A stretch of 34,499 bases of DNA from a virus (IMGVR_UViG_648276647_000016:1-34499); one strand, 5' to 3'. Positions 26,157 to 34,499 are shown, counted from the first letter of the stretch. Notes: a model not told the origin generated them from the letters alone. Numbers and translations: made by a program.

Positions 26157-26968
26157 AAGAAATCCTCCCACGCTTCAGGGCTGTTCCAGTGCGGAACGTT
26201 GTTATCAGGTAATGTTGATTGCTTCTGTCTGCTAATCTGCAGCCGCCTTGCCAGCTTCTGCTCCCACTGTGCCTGATGGTATGCCTTACCCTCAGCCATC
26301 CAGTAAATTCTGAATTCTGCAAGTTCCTGTGCCGTTGGCAGACTGTCCAGGTAGATTCCCTGCAATGAGCTTTTCCGAAGAAAGTCATCTGATGGTTGCC
26401 ATTGTTCATGCATGACAAATTTGCCTAATTGCCCTAGCCCACCAGGAGGAACAAAGTTATTCATCACGGCGTTGTTTGCGCCGGGGTCATGAGGCACAGA
26501 ATCCCCGGTTTTTGTCCTGCTCTCCCTCTCTTGGTTAAATGACTGGTTATATGACTGGTTCTGGATCCCGTTTTTGGGATCATTCAACATCCCGTTTTTG
26601 GGATCATTCAACATCCCGTTTTTGGGTATATTCCCGTTTTCGGGAACATTACCGTTTTCGGGTTTATTACACCCTTCTAGGTTGCCTTTAATGTTCCCTT
26701 TTTTGGTTATATTAAGAGAGAAAACCCGCACTCTTTTCGTCGCTCCCTTTCTCTCTCCGGTATCTGAAATAAGCCCCATTTTCATGAGCGATATAAGCCC
26801 GGCCTGTACGGTTTTTTTATTCAGGCAAGTGTCTTTAACGAGGCGTTCTATGCTGGGGTAGCAGAGGTTATATTCATCGGCTCTGTCAGCCATCGAGAGC
26901 AGTATGAGCTTTAATGATGAGCTACCTGGATCTGTCTCCCAGGCCCAATCTGTTGCATGTCTGCTCAT
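26153..26968 (-). CDS. Replication initiator O-like protein (N-terminal winged-helix, central repeat region holding the origin)
   Basis: 271 aa; strong RBS (GGAGATT); internal peptide repeats NDPKNGML are encoded by the DNA iterons; immediately upstream of P. Confidence 0.65.
   Translation of the reverse strand: MSRHATDWAWETDPGSSSLKLILLSMADRADEYNLCYPSIERLVKDTCLNKKTVQAGLISLMKMGLISDTGERKGATKRVRVFSLNITKKGNIKGNLEGCNKPENGNVPENGNIPKNGMLNDPKNGMLNDPKNGIQNQSYNQSFNQERESRTKTGDSVPHDPGANNAVMNNFVPPGGLGQLGKFVMHEQWQPSDDFLRKSSLQGIYLDSLPTAQELAEFRIYWMAEGKAYHQAQWEQKLARRLQISRQKQSTLPDNNVPHWNSPEAWEDFL
26564..26668. repeat. Origin iterons: two perfect 24-bp direct repeats (ATCCCGTTTTTGGGATCATTCAAC) plus three degenerate copies, each containing TCCCG-N-CGGGA-type dyad symmetry
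   Basis: Directly visible tandem repeats inside the O-like gene, followed by an AT-rich stretch (26669-26720), as in lambda ori. Confidence 0.7.
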
Positions 26969-28322: not shown

Positions 28323-28350
28323 TAAGCCGCCTCATGGCGGCTTTTTTATT
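28323..28350 (+). terminator. Rho-independent terminator (AAGCCGCC-TCAT-GGCGGCTT + TTTTTATT)
   Basis: Perfect 8-bp stem plus T-tract 20 bp after the repressor stop. Confidence 0.7.
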
Positions 28351-28360
28351 GCCCATGCTA

Positions 28361-28438
28361 TTACCTAATGGGTAATTTTTTTAACTCATATCTATTGACA
28401 TCAAACCAAATACGCATAATTATTACCTCAACGGTAAC
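28361..28438 (+). promoter_or_regulatory. PL-like promoter (TTGACA 28395-28400, -10 near 28417-28423) bracketed by operators TTACCTAATGGGTAA (28361-28375) and TTACCTCAACGGTAA (28424-28438)
   Basis: Consensus -35 hexamer, AT-rich -10, and the downstream operator lies over the predicted transcription start. Confidence 0.6.
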
Positions 28439-30656: not shown

Positions 30657-30905
30657 ATGAAAGGTGCATTAGGTAAGAAGGAACTCCTGGCGGTGGTGCC
30701 ACTGTCATGGAGCACTATCGACCGTATGGAGCGCGCAGGGGAATTTCCTAAACGCTGGTATATCACTGACAAACGCTGCGCATGGAACCGTGACGAAGTT
30801 GAGCGTTGGCTTGATGAACGTCAGGCAGCAAGCCCGGCAGAGTTCCAGGGTAAAAAGCCTCCTGTTCAGCAACGTGTATATCGTCCTGTGAGCAACGCTG
30901 CATGA
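30657..30905 (+). CDS. AlpA-family DNA-binding protein (putative excisionase / transcriptional regulator)
   Basis: 82 aa; LLAVVPLSWSTIDRMERAGEFPKRWYITDKRCAWNRDEVERWL fits the AlpA/Xis pattern; strong RBS AGAGAGG. Confidence 0.65.
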   Translation: MKGALGKKELLAVVPLSWSTIDRMERAGEFPKRWYITDKRCAWNRDEVERWLDERQAASPAEFQGKKPPVQQRVYRPVSNAA

Positions 30906-31014
30906 GTGCGCTGCTAAGGCACTGGAGCAAATGGTCAGGATGGTACTTATTCCTGGCCTCTGTTTCAGCATGGCTTTATCTGCTGGCATTAATTTTCAGA
31001 GAGGGTTGGATTAA

Positions 31015-31314
31015 GTGAGAAAGTTAAGCCGACTTGAAAAATATCACATGAACAAGGTTTCAATGCGCCGTCCTTCAAAGGTTATCGCCGTTACTCCTGC
31101 GGCGATAGAGATCGAAAAACGCGCGATTGAAAGAGAGAAAAAAGGGCAATTCCGCATTGCCGCTCACCTTTGGCTTCAGTGTATGGATGTTGCTTCTGGT
31201 GATGTTGAACGTGCAAGGATCGCGGTTCGCAGGGACCAATGTATCACAAAAGGTAACGGCCTTCGCCGTGGCGACTATAGCGGTATAGGATGTTGCGGGG
31301 TGGTTTATGAATAA
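31015..31314 (+). CDS. PerC-like transcriptional regulator (tentative)
   Basis: 99 aa; GQFRIAAHLWLQCMD...ERARIAVRRDQC resembles the PerC/Pch G-W-R-AA-WL core as I remember it; start uncertain (GTG 31015 or internal ATG). Confidence 0.4.
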   Translation: MRKLSRLEKYHMNKVSMRRPSKVIAVTPAAIEIEKRAIEREKKGQFRIAAHLWLQCMDVASGDVERARIAVRRDQCITKGNGLRRGDYSGIGCCGVVYE

Positions 31315-32410
31315 ACAAAACAATAATATAAAAGGTAATATCATGAGCAAGGTAGGCGATTATTTCTTTGAATTTCCCGCATCACGAGGAACGCAGGGAA
31401 GCACTGTAATACTTATGATGACAGTACCAGCAAGAGCACTATCGAGAGTATTGGCAACCGACAATACGGGAAGTACCCTTGAACGTTCTCAACGTGAAAT
31501 TAATCCAACTAGGGTAAAAAAGTTTTATCAATATTTAGTCAACGCTTACGAGAAAAAGGAACCATTTATTGTTCCACCATTGGTCGGAAATTGTAACTCA
31601 GAAATAGAGTTCCATGAGATTGGAAATACTAATGTCGGTTTAGCTAGATTTCCTATGGATGCAGAAATAAAATTATTTGATGGACAGCATCGTGCTGCAG
31701 GATTAGCTGAGTTCTGCCGTAATTATGGTGAAACAATTATGATTCCTCTTATGCTTACGCATAACCTTCCTTTGAAGGCGCGTCAGCAGTTCTTTTCTGA
31801 CATTAATAATAATGTTTCAAAACCATCTGCAGCAATTAATATGGCGTATGACGGACGAAACGATGTTGCCCAAGAAATGGTGTCTTTCCTGTCGCAACAT
31901 GACACTTTTGCAGAAGTCACTGACTTCGAGCACAACGTTGTTCCGTCAAAGTCAAACATGTGGGTGAGTTTCAAAGCATTAAGTGATTCAACATCAAAAT
32001 TTTGTATTCATAATGGAAAAAAACTAGAAATTGGTAACATCGAGTCAGTATGGGAATCATGGTTATGTCTTACACAACTAGAAGCAATTCGCCATGGTAC
32101 AAAGCAATCAGAATACAAAAGAGAATATATCCAGTTTCATGCAGTGATGATTAACGCTTTTGGTTATGCTGTTCAGCAAATGATGGTTAATCACTCAATA
32201 AAAGAAATAATTTCAATGATTGAAACATTATGTGCAAATACTGACTTCGCAGAAAGAGAGAATTTTTTCCTAATGGATAATTGGGTTGGGATCTGCACGA
32301 AAGCAAGCCAGGAAAAACTATCAGTTATTGCCAATGTAGCAGCACAGAAAGCGGCAGCAAACAGGCTGATACAAGCCTTTACCAAAGGAAGTCTGGGAGC
32401 AGAGCAATGA
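31307..32410 (+). CDS. DGQHR-domain protein (DndB-like, ParB/Srx-fold)
   Basis: Contains the exact DGQHR signature (KLFDGQHRAAGLAEF); ~355-367 aa like DndB; gene is strongly AT-rich; alternative start at the ATG at 31343. Confidence 0.6.
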   Translation: MNKQNNNIKGNIMSKVGDYFFEFPASRGTQGSTVILMMTVPARALSRVLATDNTGSTLERSQREINPTRVKKFYQYLVNAYEKKEPFIVPPLVGNCNSEIEFHEIGNTNVGLARFPMDAEIKLFDGQHRAAGLAEFCRNYGETIMIPLMLTHNLPLKARQQFFSDINNNVSKPSAAINMAYDGRNDVAQEMVSFLSQHDTFAEVTDFEHNVVPSKSNMWVSFKALSDSTSKFCIHNGKKLEIGNIESVWESWLCLTQLEAIRHGTKQSEYKREYIQFHAVMINAFGYAVQQMMVNHSIKEIISMIETLCANTDFAERENFFLMDNWVGICTKASQEKLSVIANVAAQKAAANRLIQAFTKGSLGAEQ

Positions 32411-33054
32411 AAAAATACACGCTAATATATGCAGATCCACCCTGGGTATACCGGGACAAAGCCGCAGATGGTAATCGCGGCGCTGGTTTTAAATATCCGG
32501 TTATGAGTGTGCTGGATATCTGCCGCCTTCCTGTGTGGGATTTGTCCGATGAAAACTGTCTGTTGGCCATGTGGTGGGTGCCAACACAACCACTCGAAGC
32601 ACTAAAAGTTGTTGAAGCCTGGGGATTCCGTCTGATGACCATGAAGGGCTTCACGTGGATAAAATGTGGTAGTCGACAACCAGATAAACTAGTTATGGGT
32701 ATGGGACACATGACTCGCGCCAATAGTGAAGATTGCCTGTTTGCGGTAAAGGGAAAACTACCTCCGCGCATTAATGCAGGTATCGTTCAGTCATTTACCG
32801 CACCGCGGCTTGAGCATTCAAGAAAACCAGATGTCGTTCGTGAAAAACTTGTGCAATTGTTAGGCGATGTTTCTCGCATTGAACTGTTCGCCCGCCAGTC
32901 GTCTCATGGCTTCGATGTTTGGGGTAATCAGTGCGAAGACCCGGCAGTGCAACTACACCCTGGATACGCGTTGGATATTGGCGGATTAACAAATGCATTC
33001 AGCAATGCTCCGCTGTCACCAACAGACAACCAGGGGCGGGAGCGTGCAGCATGA
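32407..33054 (+). CDS. MT-A70-family DNA N6-adenine methyltransferase
   Basis: Starts MKKYTLIYADPPW (DPPW catalytic motif) with further conserved stretch HSRKP; start overlaps the DGQHR stop (ATGA). Track start 32281 is an upstream extension. Confidence 0.7.
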   Translation: MKKYTLIYADPPWVYRDKAADGNRGAGFKYPVMSVLDICRLPVWDLSDENCLLAMWWVPTQPLEALKVVEAWGFRLMTMKGFTWIKCGSRQPDKLVMGMGHMTRANSEDCLFAVKGKLPPRINAGIVQSFTAPRLEHSRKPDVVREKLVQLLGDVSRIELFARQSSHGFDVWGNQCEDPAVQLHPGYALDIGGLTNAFSNAPLSPTDNQGRERAA

Positions 33055-33245
33055 ACAGGGCATCACCAGCAGATTTAAGGAAATGCCTTGAAACTGCAAA
33101 CATGCTTGCACACAGCGGGATCAGGTTTGTTCCAATTCCCGCTGTCACTGATGCTGAATTTGCAACACTGTCAGCAATATTCGCAGATAAAATTGAATCA
33201 CTGGCAGCAGAAGCCGAGATGGAAGAAAATCAGCAGAATAATTAA
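33051..33245 (+). CDS. Small conserved hypothetical protein (64 aa)
   Basis: ATG overlapping the methyltransferase stop (ATGA); last gene before the convergent integrase. Confidence 0.4.
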   Translation: MNRASPADLRKCLETANMLAHSGIRFVPIPAVTDAEFATLSAIFADKIESLAAEAEMEENQQNN

Positions 33246-33251
33246 ACGTTA

Positions 33252-34499
33252 TTACCCCGCCATCCATTTCTCAAACTTCGACGGGGAGAACGGAATCAGA
33301 TCCGTATGCTCCCCGTCAATCCAGGAATCAATCATATCGGCCCACTGCTGCAACATCCAGGCGCGCTGTCTGGCGTATTCCGCTTTGTTATATACGGCGC
33401 GCACACCTTTCTGCTCATGTGCCAGAGCCTTTTCAATCCAGTCTGAAGGATAACCAGCCTCATGCAATAACGTACTGGCTGTACGGCGCATATCGTGTAC
33501 GGTGAAGTCCTGAATATGCTCACCATTTTCATTTATTATTTTCACCGTTCTGTCGATCAGAGAGTTCAGCGCGGCATTAGATAATGGCTTCCGGAAGTTG
33601 TAACGACCAGGAACCAGATATTCACTTCCACCAGCGCACATCTGCAGCCCGACCAATATATCCTGTGCCTGTTTAGGCAGGTAAATAACGTGCGCCCGGC
33701 TTCCCTTCATGCGGTCTGAAGGAATTGTCCATGTCCATTTTTTAAAATCTATTTCATCCCACGTTGCGTTGGTGAATTCGCCTTTACGAACCATAGTGAT
33801 AAGCACCAGCTTTAAAGCCATTTTCATAGTGCCCATAGCACCAATGGCATCCAGCGTGCGGAAAAACAGGCCAATTTCTTCTGGTGTCAGTGTTCGCTCT
33901 CTTGGTTTAAATATGGCGATAGACGAAGGTTTAATGTCAGCCGCAGGATTAAACAAACCATGACCACGGTCATTGGCGTGACGGTATACGCTGCTGATGA
34001 TCTCCCTTGCCTGTACTGCTGTTGCCCGACCACCGCGTTCGACAATCCGGTCACACAAATCACGAACCATCGATGTGGTAATTTCAGTCATCATTTTGTT
34101 GCCAAGAACCGGAAGTATGTCACGGTCGATCACCGCCTGCTTCATTGCGCGGGTACTGTCAGCCAGGATGACATGTTTCATATAACTGTCGGTATGTACC
34201 GCAAACGTCTCGGCACCACGAATCTTTTTGATACCGTCACGTTTAGCCGCAGCCGGTGACTGGCCTGCCTTAAGCAGCTTCTTTGCAGCAATCAGTTCTT
34301 CTCGCGCTTCTGCCAGGCTGATACCGTCACGCCCATACTGCCCGATTACCAGTGTTTCGCGGCGACCGTTGATACGGTAGTCATAGCGAAACGAGACCGT
34401 GCCTGACGTAAGCACAGCTACATACAGCCCGTCACGATCGGAGACCTTGTACAGTTTGTCCTGCGGCTTGAGGTTTTTTAATTTTGTATCGGTAAGCAC
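33252..34499 (-). CDS. int: Tyrosine recombinase / phage integrase (P4-like), 5' end at or just beyond the window edge
   Basis: 415 aa; N-terminus LTDTKLKNLKPQDKLYKVSDRDGLYV is typical of P4-type integrases; C-terminal catalytic region (HDMRRTASTLLHEAG...YNKAEY). First codon in window is GTG at the very edge. Confidence 0.8.
   Translation of the reverse strand: MLTDTKLKNLKPQDKLYKVSDRDGLYVAVLTSGTVSFRYDYRINGRRETLVIGQYGRDGISLAEAREELIAAKKLLKAGQSPAAAKRDGIKKIRGAETFAVHTDSYMKHVILADSTRAMKQAVIDRDILPVLGNKMMTEITTSMVRDLCDRIVERGGRATAVQAREIISSVYRHANDRGHGLFNPAADIKPSSIAIFKPRERTLTPEEIGLFFRTLDAIGAMGTMKMALKLVLITMVRKGEFTNATWDEIDFKKWTWTIPSDRMKGSRAHVIYLPKQAQDILVGLQMCAGGSEYLVPGRYNFRKPLSNAALNSLIDRTVKIINENGEHIQDFTVHDMRRTASTLLHEAGYPSDWIEKALAHEQKGVRAVYNKAEYARQRAWMLQQWADMIDSWIDGEHTDLIPFSPSKFEKWMAG

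What the first reader, a model, noticed from the sequence alone, without database searches (positions are those of the whole stretch)
31015..31314. Possible PerC/Pch-type regulator encoded in the integrase-proximal moron block
The 99-aa product shows the G-(W/F)R-AA-x-WL-x-MD...ER-R-A-RR pattern I associate with PerC-family activators, which in pathogenic E. coli are prophage-borne regulators of host virulence loci. If correct, this prophage carries a host-directed transcription factor alongside the DGQHR/methyltransferase pair.
Basis: inference. Interest (0 to 1): 0.35.

Follow-up and report, generated by a model that had tools for sequence, protein, structure and literature searches.

The report
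Phage PerC-family small regulator gene
This is a real, already annotated gene for a small PerC-family protein that belongs to the conserved early operon of phiV10/epsilon15-type prophages, and nothing here shows that it controls host virulence genes.

Summary
The ORF at 31015..31314 (+) is real. RefSeq and phage phiV10 (gp34) already annotate it as PerC family, and 535 of 5426 complete E. coli genomes carry it.

Only the first half of PerC is shared. This is a three-helix core that also resembles ANR anti-activators. The C-terminal module of PerC and PchA-C is missing. In its place are a subfamily-specific N-extension and a conserved C-tail.

The gene is not a moron. It sits at a fixed position (AlpA, 38-aa ORF, PerC-like) in the tightly packed early-left operon of Uetakevirus prophages in several genera. 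dN/dS is about 0.2. The true moron is the AT-rich DGQHR cassette inserted at its stop codon.

Carriage is independent of LEE: 13.1% of carriers have ler, against a 12.7% base rate, and this host has none. Other PerC-family members activate, ignore or repress LEE1, so family membership does not predict the effect.

The GTG start at 31015 (99 aa) is better supported than the shorter database starts.

Verdict: ordinary and already known. The virulence-regulator reading is not supported, and the function is untested.

The parts
31015..31314 (+). PerC-family CDS: 99 aa, pI about 10, 11.3 kDa, GTG start, TAA stop
   Evidence: ORF and sequence. Pfam PerC 30.2 bits, above the gathering score of 22.6. 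PHROG 868 over the full length. dN/dS about 0.2. pI.
31001..31005 (+). Shine-Dalgarno-like GAGGG, 9 nt upstream of the GTG start
   Evidence: Read from the sequence. GAAGG sits at the same offset upstream of the ATG starts in the Kosakonia and Klebsiella orthologs.
31015..31113 (+). Subfamily-specific N-terminal extension (aa 1-33) with a predicted short helix at residues 6-14. It has no counterpart in PerC or Pch.
   Evidence: Y10, H11, R18, A25, T27, P28 and A30 are at least 90% conserved in alignment A1. AF2 helix at 6-14. The PerC alignment begins only at residue 34.
31114..31254 (+). PerC/ANR-type three-helix core (aa 34-80): helices 28-42, 46-59 and 63-80, ending at the family-invariant Cys76
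   Evidence: Pfam match of aa 35-80 to profile positions 5-50. ANR model match at aa 35-77. hhalign pairs residues 32-83 with PerC 3-54. AF2 pLDDT 80-89. Foldseek against small phage ANR-like proteins gives TM 0.85-0.87.
31255..31311 (+). Subfamily-specific conserved C-terminal tail (aa 81-99, NGLRRGDYSGIGCCGVVYE), predicted disordered. It takes the place of the PerC/Pch C-terminal module.
   Evidence: Y88, G90, G95, V96 and Y98 are invariant in 30 homologs. pLDDT is below 50 for residues 86-99. There is no counterpart of the PerC/Pch 'IKQxV..MG..FRxYK' module.
30902..31018 (+). Upstream 38-aa membrane-protein ORF. Its TGA stop overlaps the GTG start (GTGA), which suggests translational coupling.
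   Evidence: ORF. PHROG 17484 at E 2.6e-27. Same arrangement in phiV10p35, L007 and PAS61.
30657..30905 (+). AlpA-family regulator/excisionase gene, a fixed neighbour of the PerC-like gene
   Evidence: Pfam Phage_AlpA 24.2 bits, above the cut-off of 21. PHROG 66. Same order in L006-L009, phiV10 and PAS61.
28395..28423 (+). Only sigma-70-like promoter match upstream on this strand (TTGACA-17-AATTAT). It is the candidate promoter of the nuclease-RecT-AlpA-PerC-like-methylase operon and follows a terminator-like hairpin at 28324-28343.
   Evidence: Consensus scan only. This is inferred and is not evidence of function.
31343..32410 (+). DGQHR/DndB-like cargo gene. It is context rather than part of the PerC-like gene. 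The cassette is inserted at the PerC-like stop / methylase start junction.
   Evidence: Pfam, TIGR and PADLOC DndB/DGQHR matches. Absent from phiV10-type phages. Junction sequence and GC of 38.7%. Present in 21 of 5426 genomes.
32407..33054 (+). MT-A70 adenine methyltransferase gene. In phiV10-type phages it overlaps the PerC-like stop codon directly.
   Evidence: Pfam MT-A70 77 bits. RefSeq start. phiV10p33. PADLOC MTase_II.
33252..34499 (-). P4-type tyrosine integrase (it runs to the window end). The prophage is integrated next to guaA.

Best explanation
The ORF is a genuine gene for a 99-aa basic protein of the PerC (PF06069) family. More precisely, it belongs to a distinct phiV10/epsilon15 (Uetakevirus) subfamily, PHROG 868.

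This subfamily keeps only the three-helix core that PerC/Pch share with ANR anti-activators. It adds its own N-terminal helix and a conserved, probably disordered C-terminal tail.

The gene is a backbone member of the phage's early-left operon: nuclease, RecT, AlpA, a 38-aa ORF, the PerC-like gene, variable cargo and methylase, with int on the opposite strand. It is probably translated by coupling from a GTG that overlaps the upstream stop codon.

Most likely mechanism (inferred): the protein is made together with the recombination and excision functions when the operon is on. It then acts as a small transcription or nucleoid modulator. One possibility is that, like PchA, it loosens H-NS-type silencing complexes on particular DNA regions. 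Another is that, like ANR proteins, it binds a regulator directly, with the conserved tail as a partner-binding motif. On this view it serves phage development or cargo expression rather than a specific host virulence locus.

Shown here: the gene is real, the core is homologous to PerC, the architecture differs from PerC/Pch, its position is conserved, it is under purifying selection, and its carriage is independent of LEE.

Inferred: when it is expressed, what it binds, and the direction of its effect.
For: Gene and family:
- Pfam PerC above the gathering score.
- Full-length match to PHROG 868.
- BLASTP to authentic PerC at E 2e-10.
- hhalign probability 98.4%.
- 7 of the 9 invariant core positions of the PerC/Pch-type alignment are retained: E41, G44, A49, A50, W53, R73 and C76.

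Architecture:
- Only profile positions 5-50 of 90 are matched.
- The AF2 model has a three-helix core at pLDDT 80-89 and a disordered tail.
- The best fold matches are 60-aa phage proteins, including one named as ANR family, at TM 0.85-0.87. Among solved structures, the MIT and TPR folds come closest.
- The ANR model scores 23.6 bits on the window protein. It also hits authentic PerC (18.2 bits) and relatives (up to 36.5 bits), so the core is shared between the two families.
- About 145-aa relatives fuse this core to an N-terminal winged-helix domain. This suggests that the core itself is a partner-binding or oligomerisation module.

Backbone gene:
- The same gene order occurs in phiV10, PAS61, and Kosakonia and Klebsiella prophages at guaA.
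- Neighbouring genes overlap by 4 nt, and no promoter- or terminator-like site lies on the + strand after 28423.
- dN/dS is 0.17-0.22 with saturated dS in the core.

Precedents:
- PchA reduces H-NS occupancy at LEE1 (PMC4764244).
- ANR proteins bind AraC-type regulators and H-NS (PMC4983702 and PMC10148876).
- The protein has a pI of about 10, like PerC and Pch.
Against: No experiment on this subfamily was found in the held literature.

The phage as a whole is about 50% GC, so it is not an obvious H-NS target. Only the immunity region (44.7% GC) and the cargo region (42-44% GC) are AT-rich.

Two positions that are invariant in PerC/Pch-type proteins differ here (L11 becomes R40, and R19 becomes I48), so the binding specificity may differ.

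The promoter assignment rests on a consensus scan that found fewer sites than shuffled sequence does. Expression in the lysogen therefore cannot be excluded.

Fold matches are not statistically significant (best E 0.12-0.35).
Confidence: 0.6

Rival explanations
1. One reading: a prophage-borne, host-directed activator of virulence loci that works like PerC/PchABC on the LEE1 (ler) promoter.
For: The protein is a Pfam PerC family member. Group-1 Pch genes are prophage-borne and activate ler (PMC6265319 and PMC5293775). phiV10 and the O157 typing phages infect LEE-positive O157:H7. 70 carrier genomes also have ler.
Against: The protein lacks the C-terminal half that PerC and Pch share. No ler 43-mer is found in this host, 87% of carriers lack it, and there is no enrichment (13.1% against 12.7%). 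Group 2 and 3 Pch and the PICI PerC-likes do not activate LEE1, and EcCIMP1_025, which has the full PerC architecture, represses it. ZX5 lysogeny leaves adherence and virulence unchanged. The gene lies in the early-left operon, not in the late-region moron slot where pch sits.
Confidence: 0.08
2. An ANR-type anti-activator. The protein binds an AraC/XylS-family activator or H-NS directly, through protein-protein contact, and blocks its DNA binding. It would then act as a negative regulator.
For: The ANR_neg_reg model matches at E 3.4e-5 over aa 35-77. A phage protein named as ANR family superposes on the core at TM 0.85 and rmsd 0.7 A. The PerC-family protein EcCIMP1_025 represses LEE1, and its authors suspected ANR function. 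The MIT/TPR-like three-helix fold and the conserved disordered tail both suit protein binding.
Against: The score of 23.6 bits is below the NCBIfam cut-off of 32, whereas the PerC model is above its own cut-off. No AraC-family gene lies in the neighbourhood. At 99 aa with extra termini, the protein differs from the roughly 55-70-aa ANRs. Its high pI resembles the chromatin-associated Pch.
Confidence: 0.2
3. A phage-internal regulator that works with the neighbouring AlpA-type protein or on the downstream genes. Possible roles are control of excision and integration, or of the orphan methyltransferase and cargo genes.
For: The AlpA, 38-aa ORF, PerC-like order is invariant across genera. AlpA plus PerC-family genes also travel together in Gram-negative PICIs. 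PerC-core genes recur upstream of adenine methyltransferases from unrelated families: MT-A70, Dam PF05869, and SfV orf40-dam.
Against: The evidence is adjacency only. These regions collect accessory genes anyway. In EcCIMP1, the PerC-family gene is not next to the functional alpA. There is no direct evidence for any such interaction.
Confidence: 0.2

Closest known systems
phiV10 gp34 (PhiV10p34, YP_512289) and its orthologs in Uetakevirus phages (PHROG 868)
   Same: It is essentially the same protein, with about 96% amino-acid identity. It has the same position after AlpA and the 38-aa ORF and the same GTGA start context. It has been annotated by similarity to PF06069 since the phiV10 genome paper.
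   Different: In the window, a DGQHR cassette separates it from the methylase, and the last residue is E instead of D. Database start codons differ, giving 83, 88 or 99 aa. No function has been tested for any member.
PerC of EPEC (pEAF/pMAR2) and group-1 Pch (PchA/B/C) of EHEC
   Same: They share a homologous three-helix N-terminal core with the E-x-x-G-x-(Y/F)-R-x-A-A-x-x-W ... R-x-x-C signature. All are small, basic proteins encoded on mobile elements.
   Different: The window protein has an extra 33-aa N-extension. It lacks the PerC/Pch C-terminal module (IKQxV..MG..FRxYK) and has its own tail. Two core positions that are invariant in PerC/Pch are changed. pch lies between the lysis genes and the terminase in lambdoid prophages, and perC lies in the perABC operon on a plasmid. 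The window gene lies in a phage early-left operon. Its carriage is not associated with LEE.
PerC-family proteins of Gram-negative phage-inducible chromosomal islands (EcCIMP1_025; the PerC-likes of EcCIEDL933 and EcCICFT073)
   Same: All are PerC-family genes carried together with an AlpA-type regulator and a P4-type integrase on a mobile element. Their effect on LEE1 is not activation.
   Different: EcCIMP1_025 has the full PerC architecture, including the C-terminal MG module, and is 37% identical to PerC. It aligns with the window protein over only 44 residues, at 36% identity.
ANR family (Aar, Rnr; NCBIfam NF033650)
   Same: They share the same predicted three-helix core. The window protein matches the ANR model at E 3.4e-5, and the core superposes on a phage ANR-annotated model.
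   Different: The score is below the curated cut-off. The window protein is longer and has extra termini. There is no partner AraC-family gene nearby. ANRs act as negative regulators by protein-protein binding, which has not been shown here.

Membership tests
Pfam PF06069 PerC | HMM score at or above the curated gathering score (22.6 bits) | tested here: met
   30.2 bits, E 5.7e-7. hhalign against a PerC/Pch-type alignment gives probability 98.4% and E 4.3e-15.
Pfam PF06069 PerC | Conserved core residues of PerC/Pch-type proteins (L11, E12, G15, R19, A20, A21, W24, R44 and C47 of PerC) | tested here: inconclusive
   7 of 9 are retained (E41, G44, A49, A50, W53, R73, C76). L11 becomes R40 and R19 becomes I48, and both changes are fixed in the whole subfamily.
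Pfam PF06069 PerC | Full-length architecture, that is, a match to the C-terminal half of the 90-position profile (IKQxV..MG..FRxYK module) | tested here: not met
   The match covers profile positions 5-50 only. PerC, Pch and EcCIMP1_025 share the C-terminal module, and the window protein has a different conserved tail.
LEE1-activating PerC/PchABC group (functional class) | Activates the LEE1 (ler) promoter | not testable with these tools
   This needs a reporter assay. Family members outside PerC/PchABC are neutral or repressive.
LEE1-activating PerC/PchABC group (functional class) | Co-occurrence with the LEE island in the host genome | tested here: not met
   The ler 43-mer is absent from NZ_OX030728.1. 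70 of 535 carriers have it (13.1%), against 690 of 5426 genomes overall (12.7%).
LEE1-activating PerC/PchABC group (functional class) | Genomic setting of pch: a late-region slot between the lysis genes and the terminase of lambdoid prophages | tested here: not met
   pch context. The window gene lies in the early-left operon between alpA and int.
ANR family (NCBIfam NF033650) | HMM score at or above the curated cut-off (32 bits) | tested here: not met
   23.6 bits, E 3.4e-5.
ANR family (NCBIfam NF033650) | Small all-helical protein with three helices | tested here: met
   The AF2 core has helices at 28-42, 46-59 and 63-80, and Foldseek gives TM 0.85 to a phage protein named as ANR family. However, the protein is 99 aa (11.3 kDa) with extra termini.
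ANR family (NCBIfam NF033650) | Accompanies an AraC/XylS-family activator and binds it or H-NS | not tested
   No AraC-family gene is annotated in the 10-kb neighbourhood. The rest of the host genome was not examined, and binding needs an experiment.
PHROG 868 (Uetakevirus 'transcriptional activator') | Full-length profile match | tested here: met
   E 4.7e-61, residues 1-99 matched to profile positions 1-99.

The most novel reading that the evidence does not exclude
The PerC/ANR three-helix core may primarily be a phage and satellite early-operon module rather than a virulence-regulator fold. In Uetakeviruses, this backbone protein would use its invariant C-terminal tail (Y88, G90, G95-V96, Y98) to bind a host nucleoid or transcription factor, or the phage's own AlpA or methylase machinery, during induction. 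The virulence regulators PerC, Pch and ANR would then be exapted descendants of such phage proteins.
Probability: 0.25. Interest if true: 0.45.

Novelty: already known. Interest (0 to 1): 0.2.

Why it matters
The practical message is a caution about annotation. A PerC-family label on a prophage gene should not be read as 'virulence regulator'.

This subfamily is present in about 10% of complete E. coli genomes, whatever the pathotype. It lacks half of the PerC architecture. It also belongs to a family whose tested members activate, ignore or repress LEE1.

If its real role were established, it would explain why temperate phages and PICIs so often carry a PerC/ANR-core gene next to alpA. It could also show where the PerC/Pch and ANR virulence regulators came from.

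The work also points to a likely systematic start-codon error in RefSeq (83 aa) and in the phiV10 record (88 aa), where 99 aa is better supported.

Tried and rejected
- tblastn of the protein against 72,556 plasmids at E <= 10 did not reach perC on EAF plasmids. I therefore took authentic PerC from pMAR2 by annotation and compared it directly.
- A profile search of PDB sequences found nothing (best E 0.55).
- Foldseek against PDB and BFVD gave no significant match (best E 0.35 and 0.12). The MIT, TPR and ANR-like resemblances are used only as descriptions of fold type.
- I tested whether the gene is PchD or PchE under another name and rejected the idea. A distant blastn search adds only 25 genomes at 60-80% identity, all in the same prophage context, and finds no hits in the O157 pch loci.
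- PADLOC has no model matching the protein.
- Porter et al. 2005 (PMC543544) is not held, so its results are cited only as reported by later papers.
- Literature searches combining PerC with phiV10, Uetakevirus, epsilon15, SPN1S or TL-2011b found no functional study.
- The antisense ORF at 31075..31350 was considered. The codon-aligned antisense frame is fairly open in all lineages (79-106 codons). This is expected opposite a gene that uses few TTA, CTA and TCA codons. It has no independent support, whereas the sense frame has HMM support and shows purifying selection.
- The 'counter-silencing of the phage's own genome' idea is weakened because the phage is about 50% GC overall.

Full report
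**Observation**

The window has an ORF at exactly 31015..31314 on the + strand, with a GTG start and 99 codons. Its product is MRKLSRLEKYHMNKVSMRRPSKVIAVTPAAIEIEKRAIEREKKGQFRIAAHLWLQCMDVASGDVERARIAVRRDQCITKGNGLRRGDYSGIGCCGVVYE. E65-R66..R68..A70..R72-R73).

Pfam PF06069 (PerC) scores 30.2 bits against a gathering score of 22.6, at E 5.7e-7. Residues 35-80 match profile positions 5-50 of 90.

Independent support:
- PHROG 868 'transcriptional activator': E 4.7e-61 over the full 99 residues.
- BLASTP to authentic EPEC PerC, taken from pMAR2: 40% identity over 60 aa, E 2e-10.
- Profile-profile comparison with a PerC/Pch-type alignment: probability 98.4%, E 4.3e-15, 52 columns.

The gene is under purifying selection. 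dN/dS is 0.17-0.22 against the Klebsiella and Kosakonia orthologs, with synonymous sites saturated in the core.

**What the window is**

The region is 100% identical to a prophage at guaA in E. coli isolate 68 (NZ_OX030728.1). It is 95-98% identical to phiV10, O157 typing phages 9 and 10, vB_EcoP_ZX5, TL-2011b and other members of the genus Uetakevirus (epsilon15-like).

The gene is already annotated. RefSeq calls it 'PerC family transcriptional regulator' (WP_001311999.1). phiV10p34 is called 'transcriptional activator', identified through PF06069. 535 of 5426 complete E. coli genomes carry it at 95% nucleotide identity or more, and 25 more carry a diverged copy.

**Start codon**

RefSeq starts the gene at 31063 (83 aa) and phiV10 at 31048 (88 aa). 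The 99-aa form is better supported, for three reasons.

1. In an alignment of 30 homologs reaching down to 57% identity, residues upstream of those methionines are conserved (Y10 and H11 in at least 90%). Positions 12 and 17 are not methionine in most sequences.

2. The Kosakonia and Klebsiella orthologs have an ATG at the position of the E. coli GTG, with GAAGG or GAGGG 9 nt upstream.

3. The GTG overlaps the TGA of the upstream 38-aa ORF (GTGA), a typical coupling arrangement. PAS61 is annotated with the 99-aa form.

The first 16 codons are less constrained than the rest, and a shorter isoform cannot be excluded.

**Architecture**

AlphaFold2 on the alignment gives a short N-terminal helix (6-14) and a three-helix core (28-42, 46-59, 63-80) at pLDDT 80-89. 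Residues 86-99 have low confidence.

No solved structure matches by sequence, and no fold match is significant. The nearest folds are MIT and TPR three-helix units. In the viral library, the nearest are 60-aa phage proteins, including one named as ANR family (TM 0.85, rmsd 0.7 A).

Consistent with this, the NCBIfam ANR model matches residues 35-77 at 23.6 bits, below its cut-off of 32. The same model also touches authentic PerC (18.2 bits) and passes its cut-off on a relative that also passes Pfam PerC (P0146: 36.5 and 23.7 bits). PerC and ANR therefore share one core, an overlap that the authors of PMC11773190 also noticed.

PerC and group-1 Pch are 47% identical over their whole length, including a C-terminal 'IKQxV..MG..FRxYK' module. 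The window protein aligns with them only through the core. Its tail is different but strongly conserved (invariant Y88, G90, G95, V96, Y98), and it has a 33-residue N-extension.

Of nine positions that are invariant in the PerC/Pch-type alignment, seven are kept. Two are changed throughout the subfamily (L11 to R40, R19 to I48).

An exhaustive HMM search of 1.84 billion cluster representatives found only 63 clusters at E <= 1e-3. These include forms of about 145 aa in which the core follows a winged-helix domain. This suggests that the core is a partner-binding or oligomerisation module rather than the DNA-reading part. The protein is basic (pI about 10), like PerC and Pch.

**Genomic setting**

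The gene is not a moron. From about 28.4 kb the + strand carries small ORFs, a PD-(D/E)XK nuclease, RecT, AlpA, a 38-aa membrane ORF, the PerC-like gene, DGQHR, MT-A70 and DUF1382. Most junctions overlap by 4 nt. The consensus scan finds no promoter- or terminator-like site on this strand after 28423.

The order AlpA, 38-aa ORF, PerC-like gene is the same in phiV10, PAS61, and in Kosakonia and Klebsiella prophages at guaA. What follows is variable: DUF1317, DUF1382, a NinI phosphatase, and Dam or MT-A70.

The PerC-like gene has 48% GC, like the phage at 49.6%. The real insertion is the 1.1-kb DGQHR cassette at 38.7% GC. It sits exactly between the PerC-like stop and the methylase start and changes the last codon from D to E. 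It is present in only 21 of 5426 genomes.

By contrast, the authentic pch gene lies between the lysis genes and the terminase of a lambdoid prophage, and perC lies in the plasmid perABC operon.

**Is it a regulator of host virulence loci?**

The canonical target of PerC/PchABC is the LEE1 (ler) promoter (PMC4764244, PMC5293775, PMC6265319).

A 43-nt ler probe finds 690 of 5426 genomes. A chimeric query made of the PerC-like gene plus the ler probe finds 1155 genomes. With 535 carriers, 70 genomes have both. That is 13.1% of carriers against a base rate of 12.7%, so there is no association. The host of this window has no ler match.

Published data show that family membership does not predict the effect:
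- Group 2 and 3 Pch have little effect on LEE.
- PICI PerC-likes of EDL933 and CFT073 had no effect, and EcCIMP1_025 represses LEE1-lux. EcCIMP1_025 has the full PerC architecture and is 37% identical to PerC.
- Lysogeny by ZX5, whose region is 97.8% identical, did not change growth, biofilm, adherence to HeLa cells or virulence.

**Mechanism**

What is shown: a conserved, selected, basic, three-helix PerC/ANR-core protein, encoded inside the phage early-left operon next to alpA.

What is inferred: it is produced with the recombination and excision genes and acts as a small modulator of transcription or nucleoid proteins. It could work in the manner of PchA, which lowers H-NS occupancy at its binding sites. 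It could instead work in the manner of ANR proteins, which bind AraC-type regulators and H-NS. The conserved tail is a plausible partner-binding motif.

I rate the composite statement (PerC-family, backbone early gene, not a LEE-specific activator) at about 0.6. Any specific mechanism is at 0.2-0.35.

Arguments against counter-silencing of the phage itself are its roughly 50% GC content and the lack of any experiment on this subfamily.

**Comparison and novelty**

The protein is formally a member of Pfam PerC and of PHROG 868. It is not a member of the PerC/PchABC functional group, because the architecture, genomic slot and LEE co-occurrence tests all fail. It also does not reach the ANR cut-off.

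The gene and its family label are already in the public databases, so this is already known. The additions here are:
- the architecture difference from PerC/Pch;
- the backbone (non-moron) status;
- the independence from LEE;
- the probable start-codon correction.

Interest is low (0.2).

Noticed in passing
window 31312-32412 (DGQHR gene 31343..32410): A 1.1-kb cassette at 38.7% GC, encoding a DGQHR/DndB-like protein, is inserted precisely between the PerC-like stop codon and the MT-A70 start codon. The ATGA-type overlaps are preserved, and the last PerC-like codon changes from D to E. phiV10-type phages lack the cassette. Only 21 of 5426 complete E. coli genomes carry it, and in those checked it lies next to the PerC-like gene.
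   Followed up: partly
window 31015-31063; L001:5049; L002:3449: The RefSeq start (83 aa) and the phiV10 start (88 aa) for this gene both look too short. Residues upstream of both methionines are conserved, and the Klebsiella and Kosakonia orthologs have an ATG at the GTG position. This supports the 99-aa form.
   Followed up: yes
window 31314/32407; L006:6001-8373; L008/L009:6001-7277; L011:5001-7142; SfV orf40-dam (H77/H78): PerC-core genes repeatedly lie just upstream of orphan adenine methyltransferases from unrelated families (MT-A70, Dam PF05869) in different phage types. This could be coincidence within accessory regions, or it could reflect a functional link.
   Followed up: partly
P0139, P0145, P0146, P0148, P0151, P0161, P0172, P0175 (L011:5001-5432 for P0146): About 140-150-aa relatives fuse an N-terminal MarR/winged-helix-like domain to the PerC/ANR core. 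P0146 passes both the Pfam PerC and the NCBIfam ANR cut-offs. It lies in the early-right region of a lambdoid prophage, after cro and a cII-like gene.
   Followed up: partly
window 31255-31311 (codons 81-99): Synonymous divergence in the tail codons (dS 0.54-0.64) is much lower than in the rest of the gene, where it is saturated. This region is at the boundary between the conserved backbone and the variable cargo. It could be a recombination junction or a nucleotide-level constraint such as the ribosome-binding site of the downstream gene.
   Followed up: no
window 26575-26618: Two tandem copies of a 20-nt hairpin-forming unit (TGGGATCATTCAACATCCCG, each followed by TTTTTGGG) turned up in the terminator scan, in the region of the replication genes (P-like and DnaT-like).
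   Followed up: no
window 33051-33245 versus L012:2855-3514: The gene slot next to the integrase is variable among Uetakeviruses. It holds DUF1382 here and in phiV10, but a NinI-type Ser/Thr phosphatase in PAS61 and BP9.
   Followed up: no
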